IMG/VR virus record: IMGVR_UViG_3300012349_000008
Span: 1-45,733 of that record
DNA from: a virus
Taxonomy: Duplodnaviria; Caudoviricetes
DNA: 45,733 nt
Strand: one strand, 5' to 3'
Shown: positions 14,589 through 44,592 of the stretch, one piece after another
Numbering within the stretch: the stretch's first letter is position 1
Layout of the letters: each line of letters starts with the position of its first letter
The notes under the pieces: model-generated
Databases searched by the model: none
Seen by the model: the letters and a program-made list of their open reading frames with translations, nothing else
Told to the model about the DNA's origin: nothing
Position numbers and translations under genes: made by a program

Positions 14589-16688
14589 ATGCCTGGACTA
14601 CAAAGTATAGACTCTGAGCTTGCTCCTCTTGTAGAAGGTAATGAGGCACTTACTGATAACTCTAGTATGCAGCCTATTTCTAGTTATCAAGGTGGAGGTG
14701 CTCCATATCCAACTGGAACTTCATCTAATATTCCTATCTCTTATCCAGGTATGCCTGAACCTTCTTCTGTAACTCCTAGTAGTGAAAGTAGTAAAGGTGT
14801 TCAATCTCAGATACAAGATATTCATAAACCTAGTATGGGGATGATGCTTTTATTAGGACTTCTAGATAAAAGTGGTAATGCAGTAAATCAATACAGACAA
14901 AGAGTCATGCAAGAACAGATAGAACCTATTATTGGTAATATTAATATAGCATATAGGCAGGCTTTAAATGCAGGAGACTTTACAGGAGCACAGAAGTTAG
15001 TAAACCAATTAGGGCCATTAACAAGATATAGTCCTAATGCAGCTAAGACTTATGAAGGTTTTACTAATGAAATAGCGAAGAGACAAGATAACGTTCAACA
15101 GAATAAGATTTTAATAAGTGGATTATTAACAAGTGGAAGAGTAAAGCAAGGTACTGCTGGTTATAGGTACTTCTCTGATCCTAATACTTTACTACAGGAT
15201 AAAGATACAGTTCTTAAGGCTGTAGATATGTATGCTAATAACTCACAAGTAATAAACGGAGTACTTACAACTATTAACAAACAGACTGGAGAACCTGAGC
15301 AACAATATCCTCTTCCTGAAGCTACTAAGGCTGAGACTTTACCTAAGCCTACTCAAGATGCTATTATTGCAAAATTAGGTCCAGAATATGTACAAGAGTA
15401 TGCTAGATTACAAACATTAGTAACTACAGGAAAAGCTACTAATGGAGAGAGTCTAGCTTTTAATGCTATGAATAAGGCTATAAGTGGACAGGCTGGGTAT
15501 AATGTAGGACTTAGTCAATTCCCAGTATCAGAGAGAACTAAGATGAATCTACCTCCTGGTTTAGAAGGTCAGATGTTATCTCCTGATGCTCAACCTCAAG
15601 GACCTCAAGGTAGTACTCAGCCTCAAGGTAATATACAGAGTAAAGCACCACAAGGTAGAGTACAGAAAGGTGTACCACAACAAGGAAGTACACAGAATAT
15701 AGCTCAACAAAGAGTTATATTTGAAGCTAATGAGATGTTAAGGAATGGTGAGATATCTCAAGAGCAGCATGATAATATTCTTAGAAATAGAGGTGTAACA
15801 GTTAATCAACCTCAAGGTAGTATACCTCAAAGTCCATATCAACAAGCTAGACAAGCAGAAGCTCAGGCTAATATTCAAGAGACATATGGTAAAGAAACAG
15901 CTATAAATAAAGCACAGTATGAGAGTAGACCTCAAGAACAGTTAGTGGGATATAAGTTAGATGAGGATGGAAATTTACAGAGAAGTCCATCAGGAATGAG
16001 TAATGCTGAGTTAAATAGAGGTGGATGGCATGCAGAAACATTTCCAGATGAACAGAGAAAGAGATTGGAGATATATCCTCAATTTAAGGGCATGTATGAT
16101 CATGTAAAGGAAGAGGTTCTTACTAATCCTGTATTTAAGAATCCAGAGAAATATAGTGCCTGGTGGGATATAGCTAAGACGTACTTTCAACAAGGACTAC
16201 CTATTCCTTTTACATCTATAACAGCAGGTGGTGGAGCGGTAGGAAGTGAAGATAGGCAGAGACTAAGTTCAGCTCTAGCAGTAATGGGACAGATGACTGA
16301 ATTAATAGCTAATCCTAGTGGTAAAGATAATGCTAGTATTGCAGCTTTAAAGAACTATATTACAAGTCCTAATGCTAAGCCTAGTGGGATATTAAGTGCA
16401 TTAGATAGTGTGTATGAGACTGAATTAGCAGGGATAAGGGGGATACTAGGGACTACTAAGGGGAGTGTATCTCCAGGTAGACCTAGTTCTACGGATATAA
16501 AGAGAGAAAGAGAATCTAGAACTCCTGGTTCTTCAATGGAAAGAAGGGATGTAACAGGAGGAGAAAGTGTAGAACCTCTGGGTGAGGGGAGTATAAGGAA
16601 GAAAAAAGGAAATGCATTAGATATAGATAAGTTAGAAGGAGTGAAGGGTAGGTTGGATAGGAGTAAGTTTAAGGCTGTAGGTCCATGA
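14589..16688 (+). CDS. Internal virion / DNA ejection protein
   Basis: 699 aa, Q/P-rich, with QPQG repeats; positional call. Confidence 0.6.
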   Translation: MPGLQSIDSELAPLVEGNEALTDNSSMQPISSYQGGGAPYPTGTSSNIPISYPGMPEPSSVTPSSESSKGVQSQIQDIHKPSMGMMLLLGLLDKSGNAVNQYRQRVMQEQIEPIIGNINIAYRQALNAGDFTGAQKLVNQLGPLTRYSPNAAKTYEGFTNEIAKRQDNVQQNKILISGLLTSGRVKQGTAGYRYFSDPNTLLQDKDTVLKAVDMYANNSQVINGVLTTINKQTGEPEQQYPLPEATKAETLPKPTQDAIIAKLGPEYVQEYARLQTLVTTGKATNGESLAFNAMNKAISGQAGYNVGLSQFPVSERTKMNLPPGLEGQMLSPDAQPQGPQGSTQPQGNIQSKAPQGRVQKGVPQQGSTQNIAQQRVIFEANEMLRNGEISQEQHDNILRNRGVTVNQPQGSIPQSPYQQARQAEAQANIQETYGKETAINKAQYESRPQEQLVGYKLDEDGNLQRSPSGMSNAELNRGGWHAETFPDEQRKRLEIYPQFKGMYDHVKEEVLTNPVFKNPEKYSAWWDIAKTYFQQGLPIPFTSITAGGGAVGSEDRQRLSSALAVMGQMTELIANPSGKDNASIAALKNYITSPNAKPSGILSALDSVYETELAGIRGILGTTKGSVSPGRPSSTDIKRERESRTPGSSMERRDVTGGESVEPLGEGSIRKKKGNALDIDKLEGVKGRLDRSKFKAVGP

Positions 16689-16751
16689 GACCATTACCTG
16701 CACATCTGTACATCAAATGGTCGAGACTACTATACATTTGTGTAGTAAGTG

Positions 16752-16846
16752 TTTGTCCTACAGTGTCAAGTAAAAAATGTAGGACTTATCCTACAAGAGG
16801 TGTAGGACAAATACTGACTAGACAGATTTTCCACATCGAGTATAAT
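16752..16846 (+). promoter_or_regulatory. Four TGTAGGA/TCCTACA half-sites plus a sigma70 promoter
   Basis: Half-sites near 16756, 16778, 16789 and 16801; TAGACA-16 bp-TATAAT at 16819-16846. Confidence 0.7.
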
Positions 16847-17006
16847 GGTTTACCGGAGAGGATAGGATATGCGATATAAACCACAACGGGGTATGGGAGT
16901 GGTTTATATATAGGACAGGTAGGGATTTTAGAACTAGGTCTACCTTTTATTTCTATATTTTACATTCTTATATTTATTAAGGTTAGAAAGTGTAGAGGGC
17001 AAGAAA

Positions 17007-41892: not shown

Positions 41893-41921
41893 ATTCTACC
41901 AGTGATAAAAAAGAATGTCAA
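41893..41921 (-). promoter_or_regulatory. Sigma70 promoter of the replication operon
   Basis: TTGACA-17 bp-TAGAAT. Confidence 0.8.
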
Positions 41922-41946
41922 CCATTTTTCACACAAAGGAGAAAAA

Positions 41947-42261
41947 ATGTTCCAGGAGGAGAAACATAAGACTTTCTACAAATTTATAAAGTTTCCAAGT
42001 TTTAAACCCAGTGACTACTTTTTATTTAAATCTATAAGAGACTACTTCTTTCCATACCATAAAGACTTATCAAATACAAGACAGGTATTTGTATTAAGTA
42101 TGAGATTTTTATATTCTAAATGGAATGATCCTTCTTGTAGAGAGAGTATATTAAATTTAGCTGAGATTATAAATCATGAAGATCTTGATAGACAACTAGA
42201 AAGGGTAGAGTATAGAACTCTACAAGATATAATTAAAGATACAGAAATACAAAGACCTTAA
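41947..42261 (+). CDS. Hypothetical protein
   Basis: AAGGAG RBS before MFQEEK; in frame with track ORF 41902..42261. Confidence 0.6.
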   Translation: MFQEEKHKTFYKFIKFPSFKPSDYFLFKSIRDYFFPYHKDLSNTRQVFVLSMRFLYSKWNDPSCRESILNLAEIINHEDLDRQLERVEYRTLQDIIKDTEIQRP

Positions 42262-42577
42262 GTAGAAATAAAATAGATGTTTTCTAAAATGAAATTCATA
42301 AAATTTCAGGACCTCAATCTCTACGTATACATAAGAGATCTTTGTAAATATACTTATAAATAAAATATAACTTAATATAAAAGTAAATATATTCTTTCAT
42401 AATATTAATAAAATATCTATTTATTTATAAAGTAATAAAATCTAAACTAATAACTATAATCTTATCTTACTCTTTCTTATCTTAAGAGTGAAGTATCTTT
42501 AATCTTAAATTGCAATAACTATGCCAGACTTTATAACTAAATTAAAAATAAATATATAAAATTCTTCTCTATATTTA
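42262..42577. other. Extremely AT-rich non-coding region; candidate origin or control region
   Basis: No ORF; lies near the switch between leftward and rightward transcription. Confidence 0.4.
42511..42526 (-). promoter_or_regulatory. Sigma54 (-24/-12) type element
   Basis: TGGCATAGTTATTGCA matches TGGCAC-N5-TTGCW with exact spacing. Confidence 0.6.
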
Positions 42578-42606
42578 TTGACATATCTCCTCAGAGACGT
42601 TATATT
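42578..42606 (+). promoter_or_regulatory. Strong sigma70 early promoter
   Basis: TTGACA-17 bp-TATATT preceded by AT-rich UP-like DNA. Confidence 0.85.
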
Positions 42607-42612
42607 CTCACT

Positions 42613-42843
42613 ATCCACTCACTATGTACTGTGAGCTGTCGGTTGGAGTCGAACATATCCCCTAGTTACTGTTTCTTTAGTAGAAGTTATTCTTTCTAGT
42701 CGATATGAAACTATACCTAGACTGTGTTATAGGATAGAATTTCATACCTAGATATAAGAAGTAAAAGCTACTAAAGCGACTGGTATATACAGTTTCTAGG
42801 CGATATCTCTTTTCATGTATGCGTATATGAGAAGAGTCCTGTT
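42613..42843 (+). ncRNA. Structured non-coding leader RNA (long bulged rod plus hairpins)
   Basis: Nested pairings across 42655-42806; hairpin 42807-42836 has G-U pairs only on the + strand; no credible ORF. Confidence 0.65.
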
Positions 42844-42888
42844 TATAGGCATTGGTAGCCTATACTGAAGAGTTACCTCGAAACAGGA
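42837..42888 (+). ncRNA. Type III hammerhead ribozyme
   Basis: Stem III UCCUGU/ACAGGA, GUU cleavage triplet, 7-bp stem I UAUAGGC/GCCUAUA, core CUGAAGA, minimal stem II G(UUACCU)C, GAAA; loops I and II complementary (GGUA/UACC). Confidence 0.88.
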
Positions 42889-42895
42889 GAAGTAT

Positions 42896-43141
42896 ATGTA
42901 CGACTGTGAAGGAATAAAAATTGATATATCTCTTAGATTAGGTATACCTTTTAATATGATAGAAGAGCTTTGGAATGTAGTATTAGACTCTAGAAAGGAA
43001 GAACTCTCACATAACTCTCTAAACTATGAAGAGTTGGAGACTCTATTTAGGTTAAATATGTGGATGCCACAGGATGCTTGGATAGACCCTAATGATCAAT
43101 TATGGCATGAATGCATGCTTAACGATAGTTTATTTGAGTAA
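42896..43141 (+). CDS. Early hypothetical protein
   Basis: AGGAG RBS overlapping hammerhead stem III. Confidence 0.7.
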   Translation: MYDCEGIKIDISLRLGIPFNMIEELWNVVLDSRKEELSHNSLNYEELETLFRLNMWMPQDAWIDPNDQLWHECMLNDSLFE

Positions 43142-43811: not shown

Positions 43812-43837
43812 CGTAAGTACATATAAAGGGGACATAT

Positions 43838-44164
43838 ATGTATAGCTATGATGATCTATTCACCTCTGTTCACGAAGTACACTCCGAACATATCCTGAAT
43901 GAGGTAGTTATGTCACTCTATGAAGCTTCTAAAGTATGTCCTAAAGGTATGCTCGTAGTCGGATATAACCCTCATGAAGTATGTGAAAGATGTGAAGTAG
44001 TGGAAGATTCTTTTATAGTTTACTTCAAATTACAACTTCTATTCAATGGAAAGTATACAAATTATATAAACCTGTGTGATTGTTGTTTAAATATAGTAGT
44101 CGAGTGTGAGAGAGAGTTCCAAGAGAAGAATGAAGTAGGATTCTCTACACATTCTATTGAGTAA
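43838..44164 (+). CDS. Zinc-binding hypothetical protein
   Basis: CERC...LCDCC. Confidence 0.65.
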   Translation: MYSYDDLFTSVHEVHSEHILNEVVMSLYEASKVCPKGMLVVGYNPHEVCERCEVVEDSFIVYFKLQLLFNGKYTNYINLCDCCLNIVVECEREFQEKNEVGFSTHSIE

Positions 44165-44173
44165 CTTAAAGAT

Positions 44174-44209
44174 ACACCTCTCATGTATAGAAATATATGT
44201 GAGAGGTGT
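44174..44209 (+). terminator. 16-bp RNA hairpin with GAAA tetraloop (processing or pausing site)
   Basis: acacctctcatgtata-gaaa-tatatgtgagaggtgt with G-U pairs; no strong U tract. Confidence 0.55.
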
Positions 44210-44241
44210 GTAATACTGTAATGCATATAAAGGGGACATAT

Positions 44242-44592
44242 ATGCAGGATATATTAACAAGGTTAACAGTTAAACATATCCAAGAAGCTTATTATATACT
44301 ATTAAATTCTCTTCTATCTAACCTAGAGTCTGTTAAAAGGTTAGATAGAGCATTTGATTTAGTGGTAAAGGATAGTAAATATAAAATAGAATATGTATCA
44401 GGGAGTCCTGTTACCTTTAAAGTTGTAAGCCCTAATGGAGAATATACAGTTATAAATAGCCAAAGACTATGTACTTGTCCTGATAATCAAATACTCTGTA
44501 AGCATAGATTAGCAGTATCTCTAATACTAAACGCTATTAACCTACAGAAGAGAGATGGTATATCTATAGATGTGAAGGAGGTATTGAAATGA
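44242..44592 (+). CDS. SWIM zinc-finger protein
   Basis: F-V-S-G-YTV...CTCPD---CKH--AV. Confidence 0.82.
   Translation: MQDILTRLTVKHIQEAYYILLNSLLSNLESVKRLDRAFDLVVKDSKYKIEYVSGSPVTFKVVSPNGEYTVINSQRLCTCPDNQILCKHRLAVSLILNAINLQKRDGISIDVKEVLK

What the first reader, a model, noticed from the sequence alone, without database searches (positions are those of the whole stretch)
42578..42843. Promoter-to-ribozyme cassette defines a ~230-nt rod-shaped non-coding RNA
Seen: a near-consensus promoter followed by about 230 nt with no credible ORF. It folds by eye into a short hairpin (ctcac/gtgag), a ~150-nt multiply bulged rod and a 14-bp G-U-containing hairpin, then the hammerhead cut site. The rod pairings are atatc/gatat, cctag/ctagg, actgt/acagt, ctttagtag/ctactaaag, ttctt/aagaa, tctag/ctaga, tatgaaa/tttcata and ccta/tagg. 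Inference: an early transcript is self-processed, without host RNases, into a discrete RNA with a 2',3'-cyclic-phosphate end. Possible roles include a protein decoy (6S-like, anti-defence or antitoxin mimic), an RNase III substrate, or a replication primer given the adjacent AT-rich region. I do not recognise the RNA family. This is the best candidate for an undescribed system in the window.
Basis: partly seen in the sequence, partly recalled or inferred. Interest (0 to 1): 0.85.

Follow-up and report, generated by a model that had tools for sequence, protein, structure and literature searches.

The report
Phage RNA with swappable ribozyme end
A soil phage begins its early genes with a folded, conserved, non-coding stretch of about 230 bases that a self-cutting ribozyme likely frees from the message, and close relatives keep this RNA but carry a different ribozyme class at the same spot, which suggests the freed RNA has a job of its own, likely binding a host protein.

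Summary
Observation confirmed and extended. The window is a near-complete soil phage genome. Behind a near-consensus promoter lie 231 non-coding bases (two-helix 5' domain, 150-nt rod, 13-bp hairpin), then a type III hammerhead whose closing stem holds the next gene's ribosome site.

Related phages (about 71-72% nucleotide identity) keep the promoter, 5' domain, rod base with an invariant GACUGGU bulge, and hairpin. All 44 modelled pairs hold in 4 of 4 sequences (3 lineages); 12 change on both sides. The distal rod is not conserved.

Main result: these relatives carry a twister-type ribozyme instead of the hammerhead, predicted to cut within one base of the same place, ahead of different genes. 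Selection therefore appears to act on the RNA's 3' end, not on a ribozyme class or a downstream gene.

The RNA is absent from Rfam, from three more distant relatives and from about 200 other loci. Expression and cleavage are untested, and Rfam does not score the relatives' twister. A host-protein-binding role is inferred; 6S, primer, retron and antitoxin-repeat readings fail. Earlier scan notes describe this promoter-RNA-hammerhead layout in other phages; my look-ups found none on this family or on a ribozyme swap.

The parts
42578..42606 (+). sigma-70-type promoter (-35, 17 nt, -10); predicted +1 at 42613
   Evidence: 11 of 12 consensus matches; promoter-like site at the same spacing, with an A seven bases after the -10, in all 4 homologous sequences
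42614..42647 (+). 5' domain: helix A (42614-17 with 42644-47) stacked on hairpin B (42618-22 with 42631-35)
   Evidence: one two-sided change in each helix, all cells paired; recovered by RNAalifold; folds no better than shuffles on its own
42648..42651 (+). possible pseudoknot or intermolecular pairing strand, complementary to the start of the conserved bulge (42777-42780)
   Evidence: 4 pairs kept in 4 of 4 sequences, one two-sided and one one-sided change (helix 3); picked by eye on the same sequences and sterically tight, so suggestive only
42655..42806 (+). rod: conserved base (42655-42683 with 42768-42806) closing a variable distal arm
   Evidence: z -3.52; basal 15 pairs invariant or G-U shifted, next 4 pairs all changed on both sides; distal arm 52-55% identical between lineages
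42777..42788 (+). unpaired 3' bulge with invariant GACUGGU, the likeliest recognition surface
   Evidence: unpaired in the predicted folds of the window, L122 and L147 and in the consensus fold; invariant in L115 and L116, which were found through the polymerase gene and not through this motif
42807..42836 (+). 13-bp hairpin directly before the cut site (predicted 3'-end protector and insulator)
   Evidence: 5 of 13 pairs change on both sides; a like hairpin precedes 26 of 35 distinct related hammerheads
42837..42888 (+). type III hammerhead: stem III 42837-42 with 42883-88, GUU triplet with predicted cut after 42843, 7-bp stem I, 1-bp stem II, loop I-loop II pairing
   Evidence: intact core; member of a phage set of 35 distinct loci, 10 of them with GUU; stems covary in a 20-row alignment; no Rfam hit
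42885..42889 (+). Shine-Dalgarno AGGAG inside the 3' strand of the ribozyme's closing stem
   Evidence: largely paired in the predicted precursor of all 4 sequences; the same overlap in 13 of 35 related hammerheads
42896..43141 (+). first early ORF (81 aa), variable cargo and not a fixed partner
   Evidence: no Pfam or PHROG hit; no tblastn match in G001-G005
42511..42526 (-). neighbouring sigma-54-type site pointing away from the RNA (context; link to the RNA unproven)
   Evidence: the only exact match in the genome; present in 4 of 4 complete related genomes

Best explanation
This is a phage non-coding RNA gene at the head of the early operon: host RNA polymerase likely transcribes it on entry, a ribozyme is predicted to cut it free as a 225-250-nt RNA with a hairpin-protected, cyclic-phosphate 3' end, and its conserved core likely binds and ties up a host protein. 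Shown: the promoter-like site, the conserved and covarying fold, the hammerhead here, and a twister-type ribozyme at the same position in relatives with the same closing stem and a cut site within one base. Inferred: transcription, cleavage, accumulation and protein binding. The 5' domain and the rod base with its GACUGGU bulge would form the binding surface, and the distal arm would be an exchangeable spacer. The same cut would give the early mRNA a 5'-OH end and loosen the stem that covers the first ribosome site. The ribozyme serves as a plug-in 3'-end maturase that needs no host nuclease and, unlike a terminator, lets transcription run on into the early genes.
For: Covariation: 44 pairs, 176 of 176 cells paired, 12 pairs changed on both sides; 0 of 500 shuffles reach the paired share; slid controls 32-49%. 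RNAalifold recovers the same nested fold. One-sided changes are G-U on the plus strand, and the plus strand folds better in 4 of 4 sequences. Core identity is 74-87% against 52-55% for the distal arm and 56-64% for the upstream AT-rich DNA. Each RNA-bearing complete genome has exactly one ribozyme by descriptor scan, always in this slot (hammerhead in G000, twister in G001 and G002); none in G003-G005; 0 hits in 20 shuffled sets of 242.7 kb. The first downstream gene differs in all three genomes, so the slot follows the RNA. No long or conserved antisense match in the phages' own genomes, which favours shape over base-pairing. Phage hammerheads of this kind cleave in vitro and in E. coli (PMC3088659, sections 6 and 11 part 1, and passages).
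Against: Only 3 independent lineages (4 sequences), and the structure was drawn on these same sequences, so the shuffle counts are not probabilities. L123 folds only weakly better than shuffles (z -1.4). Rfam's twister-P1 model does not score the relatives' element, and the descriptor was written after seeing it. No binding partner, host or phenotype was identified; no phage gene was singled out as a partner. The more distant complete phage G003 has the same early operon without RNA or ribozyme, so the RNA is dispensable in the wider family. Release of the ribosome site after cleavage is predicted clearly in L123, partly in the window and L147, and not in L122, and the cut tail can still pair with it at -7 to -9 kcal/mol. 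A hairpin plus ribozyme also follows ordinary ORFs in other phages.
Confidence: 0.55

Rival explanations
1. The RNA is a put-like modifier of host RNA polymerase: it folds as it emerges, stays on the elongating enzyme after the ribozyme cuts the tether, and suppresses pausing or termination in the early operon.
For: Position directly after the early promoter with a structured domain from +2. HK022 put RNAs lie downstream of early promoters and act without a tether to the transcript (PMC9378689, passages).
Against: put is about 70 nt with two stem-loops; this RNA is three times longer with a different shape. No terminator-like site on the plus strand downstream of the ribozyme up to 45733. G003 has the same operon without the RNA. 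Rho-dependent sites were not tested.
Confidence: 0.15
2. The ribozyme exists only to shape the early mRNA's 5' end and ribosome site; the leader is a cis-acting folding spacer, or a DNA-level element, and is discarded after the cut.
For: Hairpin-ribozyme-ribosome-site cassettes are common: 26 of 35 related hammerheads have the hairpin, 24 a ribosome site and start close behind, many after an ordinary ORF. A halovirus hammerhead lies 13 nt before the first early ORF (PMC3088659). The rod's minus strand folds as well as the plus strand.
Against: A discarded spacer would not need an invariant unpaired motif and a covarying 5' domain 200 nt from the cut. G-U changes favour the plus strand. The slot tracks the RNA while the downstream gene changes.
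Confidence: 0.15
3. The cyclic-phosphate end is the point: the RNA is a ligand for a host sigma-54 activator of the RtcR type, switching on the adjacent phage sigma-54 promoter or jamming host RNA repair.
For: A conserved sigma-54-type site lies about 50 nt from the RNA's promoter. The phages encode no sigma-54 activator (0 of 4). [quoted passage not shown] Both ribozyme classes leave this end (established chemistry).
Against: G003 has the sigma-54 site, in the other orientation, without RNA or ribozyme. The RNA has no tRNA fold. The host is unknown.
Confidence: 0.05
4. The rod is a 6S-like promoter mimic or an RNase III substrate.
For: A long, imperfect rod of about 150 nt.
Against: No 6S hit even at E up to 10. 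The conserved loop is one-sided (2 nt against 10-12 nt), not a two-sided bubble. The longest uninterrupted rod helix is 7-9 bp, and the distal arm is unconserved.
Confidence: 0.07
5. The RNA primes DNA replication at the adjacent AT-rich region.
For: An AT-rich stretch lies upstream.
Against: A cyclic-phosphate end cannot be extended by DNA polymerase without repair (established chemistry). The RNA is transcribed away from the AT-rich DNA and has no complement there. G003 and G005 have AT-rich or repeat DNA at this position without the RNA.
Confidence: 0.02

Closest known systems
Hammerheads in phage and prophage transcripts, including pseudoknotted type III forms and the halovirus HF1/HF2 hammerhead before the first early ORF (Perreault et al. 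2011, PMC3088659; sections 6 and 11 part 1 and passages read)
   Same: Type III core, very short stem II, loop-loop pairing, position at the head of an early operon a few bases before a start codon; proposed transcript processing.
   Different: The parts read describe ribozymes flanking genes; they describe no conserved structured RNA as the 5' product and no exchange of ribozyme class at one orthologous site.
Type-P1 twister ribozymes (Rfam RF03160) with P0 and P3 hairpins (PMC11662667, passages); shared gene contexts of twister and hammerhead (PMC6765202, passages)
   Same: The relatives' element has P1, U-A cut step, P2, both pseudoknots, P3, P4 and an upstream P0-like hairpin. The review notes that both classes occur near the same genes for unknown reasons.
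   Different: Here the two classes replace each other between closely related genomes behind the same RNA, with the same closing stem. Rfam does not score this variant.
HK022 put RNA (PMC9378689, passages)
   Same: Structured phage RNA just behind an early promoter; can act after losing its tether.
   Different: About 70 nt, two stem-loops, no ribozyme; polymerase binding is untested here.
Phage RNA decoys: RNA anti-CRISPRs (PMC10651486) and ToxI mimics of phage PhiTE (PMC3475682); search listings and abstract starts only
   Same: Phage-made non-coding RNA proposed to bind a host protein.
   Different: Those mimic short host repeats; this RNA has no repeat unit and no Rfam CRISPR or antitoxin hit.
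6S RNA (features recalled)
   Same: Long irregular rod of similar length.
   Different: No two-sided central bubble, extra 5' domain and 3' hairpin, no Rfam hit.

Membership tests
Type III hammerhead ribozyme | Core CUGANGA ... GAAA with NUH triplet | tested here: met
   CUGAAGA 42865-71, GAAA 42880-83, GUU 42841-43; GUU in 10 of 35 distinct related loci, this one included
Type III hammerhead ribozyme | Three stems with stem III open; covariation | tested here: met
   stems I and III covary, 93.7% of cells paired in 20 rows, one of which (L013) was a misplaced off-target row left in; stem II is 1 bp
Type III hammerhead ribozyme | Loop I-loop II tertiary contact | tested here: inconclusive
   3-4 pairs possible, one compensatory change, fourth pair kept in 11 of 20 rows; most loop letters were fixed by the search pattern
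Type III hammerhead ribozyme | Rfam hammerhead model hit | tested here: not met
   none at gathering score or at E up to 10; none in 20 related hammerhead loci either
Type III hammerhead ribozyme | Self-cleavage | not testable with these tools
   needs in vitro transcription
Type-P1 twister ribozyme (relatives L115, L116, L147) | P1, U-A-A step, P2, PK1, P4, L4, G-A, PK2 in order and paired | tested here: met
   descriptor (motif letters recalled, element names from PMC11662667) hits once each in G001 and G002, 0 in 20 shuffled sets; a pattern that did not specify pairing gave 74 of 91 distinct matches with complementary PK2
Type-P1 twister ribozyme (relatives L115, L116, L147) | Rfam twister-P1 hit | tested here: inconclusive
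   not for the relatives; yes, below gathering score, for 16 of 18 hand-picked other members of the same pattern set, E 2e-12 to 2e-4
6S RNA | Two-sided central bubble in a closed rod; Rfam hit | tested here: not met
   one-sided bulge; no hit
6S RNA | Binds sigma-70 holoenzyme | not testable with these tools
   experiment needed
HK022 put-type antiterminator | Behind an early promoter | tested here: met
   starts at predicted +1
HK022 put-type antiterminator | About 70 nt, two stem-loops | tested here: not met
   231 nt, three domains against the description
HK022 put-type antiterminator | Binds RNA polymerase and suppresses termination | not testable with these tools
   experiment needed
Type III antitoxin mimic / RNA anti-CRISPR | Short repeat unit resembling a host antitoxin or CRISPR repeat | tested here: not met
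   no internal repeat family within the RNA; no Rfam hit; host repeats unknown
Retron or other reverse-transcriptase RNA | Adjacent reverse transcriptase | tested here: not met
   0 of 4 complete genomes match RVT_1
Retrozyme / viroid-like circular RNA | Ribozymes on both sides of the rod | tested here: not met
   one ribozyme per genome by descriptor, on the 3' side only; other ribozyme classes were covered only by Rfam

The most novel reading that the evidence does not exclude
It would offer one reason why unrelated ribozyme classes gather at phage early regions: they are plug-in 3'-end makers for RNA effectors.
Probability: 0.3. Interest if true: 0.85.

Novelty: new variant of a known kind. 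Interest (0 to 1): 0.64.

Why it matters
What bacterial and phage self-cleaving ribozymes are for, and why hammerheads and twisters share gene contexts, is stated as open in the review passages read (PMC6765202). This locus is a natural swap experiment: the ribozyme class and the downstream gene change while the upstream RNA, the closing stem and the predicted cut position stay. That points to the 5' product as the selected output and makes the idea directly testable with three short constructs. It also adds an RNA family that is not in Rfam, with a defined candidate binding surface.

Tried and rejected
Rfam: nothing for the window, for 20 related hammerhead loci or for the relatives' RNA. GenBank phages: no DNA match; capsid relatives at 29% identity or less and without a host. 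GTDB: no polymerase relative; 19 motif hits, none matching the RNA model, so no host or chromosomal copy was found.

The leaders before related hammerheads in other phages looked similar in layout, but the model R1 found no match in 93 loci or in 78 twister-pattern loci. R1 rests on 4 sequences and can miss remote kin. In G003-G005 the best hits had E 0.79-0.81; G004 and G005 are incomplete.

Motif scans: 3 of 7 viral loci and 6 of 30 metagenome loci were real by the basal-stem check, giving one new variant (L147). The hairpin scan gave 3 known contigs among 6 loci; the other three did not match R1.

Expression: no RNA holder listed; this says nothing either way. Antisense targets: only 11-14-nt matches, not shared between genomes. 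Terminator reading of the 3' hairpin: flagged, but the U-rich tail is not kept in the twister relatives. A second, degraded hammerhead in the 5' domain and tRNA-loop mimicry were considered by eye and dropped for lack of stems. Protein atlas: only a lead under 0.9 (MetJ-like) for the upstream ORF, nothing usable for the 165-aa ORF.

Literature: searches listed no paper on this RNA or on a ribozyme swap at one site, judged from titles and abstract starts. In the 10,006-candidate viral RNA catalogue (PMC10690425, passages read), 6 supplement files gave no motif hit, but 3 files, two of them too large to open, were not searched. A piece of this RNA could be listed there.

Full report
Setting. The window is a near-complete phage genome of about 45.9 kb: capsid, split family-A polymerase and Erf-like annealing protein, with locus L001 joining the window's end to its start. 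Runs that hold this stretch are soil metagenomes: 8 of 10 listed rows hold half the words or more, in 5 studies, one of which may be the source. No host was found. The finding lies where the leftward replication genes and a rightward block of small early genes diverge.

Observation. The promoter, the 231-nt gap without a credible ORF, the small hairpin, all eight rod pairings and the last hairpin are as described, except that the last hairpin has 13 pairs. Folding beats shuffles (z -4.05, 0 of 100; rod z -3.52, 0 of 200). This is weak alone: the minus strand folds as well, the 5' part is at chance, and 8 of 304 windows of this genome score as low. Rfam has no match.

The hammerhead. 42837-42888 is a type III hammerhead with an intact core, GUU triplet, 7-bp stem I, 1-bp stem II and complementary loops. 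Pattern scans of viral contigs gave 73 and 40 loci. I kept the 40, added 5 from the first scan, collapsed duplicates and dropped one without a cut site (L109), leaving 35 distinct loci including this one. Of these, 10 have GUU, 26 a hairpin just before the cut, 24 a ribosome site and start codon just after, and 13 the ribosome site inside stem III. Stems covary in a 20-row alignment that includes one misplaced row. The ribozyme and its hairpin are thus an ordinary phage cassette of the kind in Perreault et al. 2011. Many follow an ORF; others follow a non-coding leader.

Homologs of the RNA. Polymerase relatives (aligned) led to five phage records. Two complete ones, G001 (L115/L122) and G002 (L116/L123), are 72.5% and 70.7% identical to the window over 58-60% of its length and carry the RNA in the same slot. 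A motif scan of metagenomes added one variant, L147, close to L122. These 4 sequences are 3 lineages. All have a promoter-like site at the same spacing and 225-249 nt to the cut. Between lineages the 5' domain with the rod base is 74-79% identical and the 3' base with the hairpin 81-87%, while the distal arm is 52-55% and the upstream AT-rich DNA 56-64%.

Covariation. On the structure I drew, all 176 cells of 44 pairs are standard pairs and 12 pairs change on both sides; 0 of 500 shuffles reach the paired share and slid controls give 32-49%. RNAalifold finds the same nested fold. With three lineages and a structure drawn on the same sequences, these counts are not probabilities. One-sided changes are G-U on the plus strand, which also folds better in 4 of 4. 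The bulge motif GACUGGU is invariant in the two relatives that were found without using it. Four bases after the 5' domain can pair with the start of that bulge in all four sequences, with one two-sided change; the geometry is tight, so this may be a pseudoknot, a dimer contact or chance.

The swap. In G001, G002 and L147 the sequence after the hairpin is not a hammerhead (41-42% identical to it, 93% identical between the two twister lineages). It maps element by element onto a type-P1 twister with a P3 hairpin. It keeps the same closing stem, whose 3' strand is again the ribosome site, and the predicted cut falls one base before the hammerhead's. A descriptor scan of both strands of six genomes (242.7 kb) found one hammerhead in G000, one twister each in G001 and G002, all in this slot, none in G003-G005, and none in 20 shuffled sets. 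The descriptor uses recalled motif letters and was written after I had seen the element.

Independent check of the twister. A pattern that fixed only core letters returned 121 loci (scan stopped at its limit); 74 of 91 distinct matches, the two relatives among them, have a complementary second pseudoknot, with varied letters. Rfam of 18 hand-picked members twister-P1, all below the gathering score. Against this, Rfam does not score the relatives' own element. The C at one loop position is probably the A-to-C change reported as tolerated (PMC11662667, passages; my mapping). Because the window's hairpin is identical to G002's while G001 and G002 share the twister, the hammerhead is probably the newcomer. 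The first downstream gene differs in all three genomes.

Further variants. Soil-run contigs show the twister form again and, in runs X6 and X9, a form with 263 other bases between the -35 box and the same hairpin, followed by sequence that starts like this hammerhead and then diverges. I could not read it in full; it may be a distant homolog or another RNA in the same slot.

Range. The model built from the four sequences finds nothing in G003-G005, in 93 and 78 other phage and metagenome loci, or in 31 of 32 further loci, the one hit being a known copy. RNA and ribozyme occur together in 3 of 3 genomes and are both missing in the other 3, two of which are incomplete; the three carriers are one clade.

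Mechanism. Shown: layout, conservation, covariation, and two ribozyme folds at one site. Inferred: host polymerase transcribes the unit early; the ribozyme cuts; the 5' product has a hairpin and a cyclic-phosphate end; the mRNA gets a 5'-OH end. The ribosome site is largely paired in all four predicted precursors; after the cut it is predicted open in L123, partly open in the window and L147, and still paired in L122 (pseudoknots not modelled). A ribozyme makes a defined 3' end without stopping transcription, which fits an RNA gene at the head of an operon. An invariant unpaired motif on a conserved frame, a free distal arm and no conserved antisense target point to protein binding. I put processing into a discrete, selected RNA at about 0.85 and the full decoy model at 0.55.

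Rivals. A put-like polymerase modifier remains possible because put works without a tether, but no downstream terminator-like site was found. A cyclic-phosphate ligand for an RtcR-type activator is suggested by the neighbouring sigma-54-type site and the lack of a phage activator, but G003 has the site without the RNA. 6S, repeat-mimic, retron, circular-RNA and primer readings fail their tests.

Novelty. Ribozyme-processed phage transcripts are known, and earlier notes of this scan describe promoter-RNA-hammerhead layouts in other phages (unchecked AI notes). Look-ups by sequence, by place and by words for a swap found nothing on this family. The RNA is not in Rfam; three supplement files of a large viral RNA catalogue could not be searched. 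I rate it a new variant of a known kind, interest 0.64. The hammerhead-twister exchange at a fixed cut site is the part a specialist would notice.

Noticed in passing
window 42511-42526 (minus strand); G001, G002, G003, L147: A single exact sigma-54-type site, conserved amid poorly conserved DNA, pointing left toward the replication genes and antisense to the ORF at 41902-42261; in G003 it points right, toward the early genes. No phage sigma-54 activator was found.
   Followed up: partly
window 44172-44211 and the 20 bases after it: An 18-bp intergenic hairpin in the strongest-folding tile of the genome. It resembles the RNA's 3' hairpin, is followed by letters like the start of the relatives' twister, and has no match in G001 or G002; possibly a decayed ribozyme slot.
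   Followed up: partly
window 43820-43840 and 44224-44244: Identical 21-nt direct repeat containing the ribosome site and start codon of two early genes.
   Followed up: no
window 41902-42261 (likely start 41947): Small ORF conserved in all five relatives; weak atlas lead to MetJ-like repressors (score 0.86), facing a strong leftward promoter at 41921-41893.
   Followed up: partly
L076, L079, L083, L086, L089, L090, L091, L102, L105, L107, L110 (about 300 nt upstream of the hammerhead): Other phages have structured non-coding leaders of about 150-300 nt between a promoter-like site and the same hammerhead type, in at least two sequence groups, unrelated to this RNA by model search; Rfam had no hit in the matching loci tested.
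   Followed up: partly
L184-L304: A large set of phage twister-P1 ribozymes with an AC/GU first pseudoknot; the 16 that Rfam recognised among 18 tested all score below its gathering threshold.
   Followed up: partly
whole window: GCGC, CGCG, CAGCTG, GAGCTC and GCTAGC are absent and CG is rare (6.5 per kb), whereas the RNA has 26 per kb; 1.7% of equal windows have as many.
   Followed up: no
L117, reversed 16650-16990: Relative G003 has a run of short imperfect repeats where the window has AT-rich DNA; a possible replication origin.
   Followed up: no
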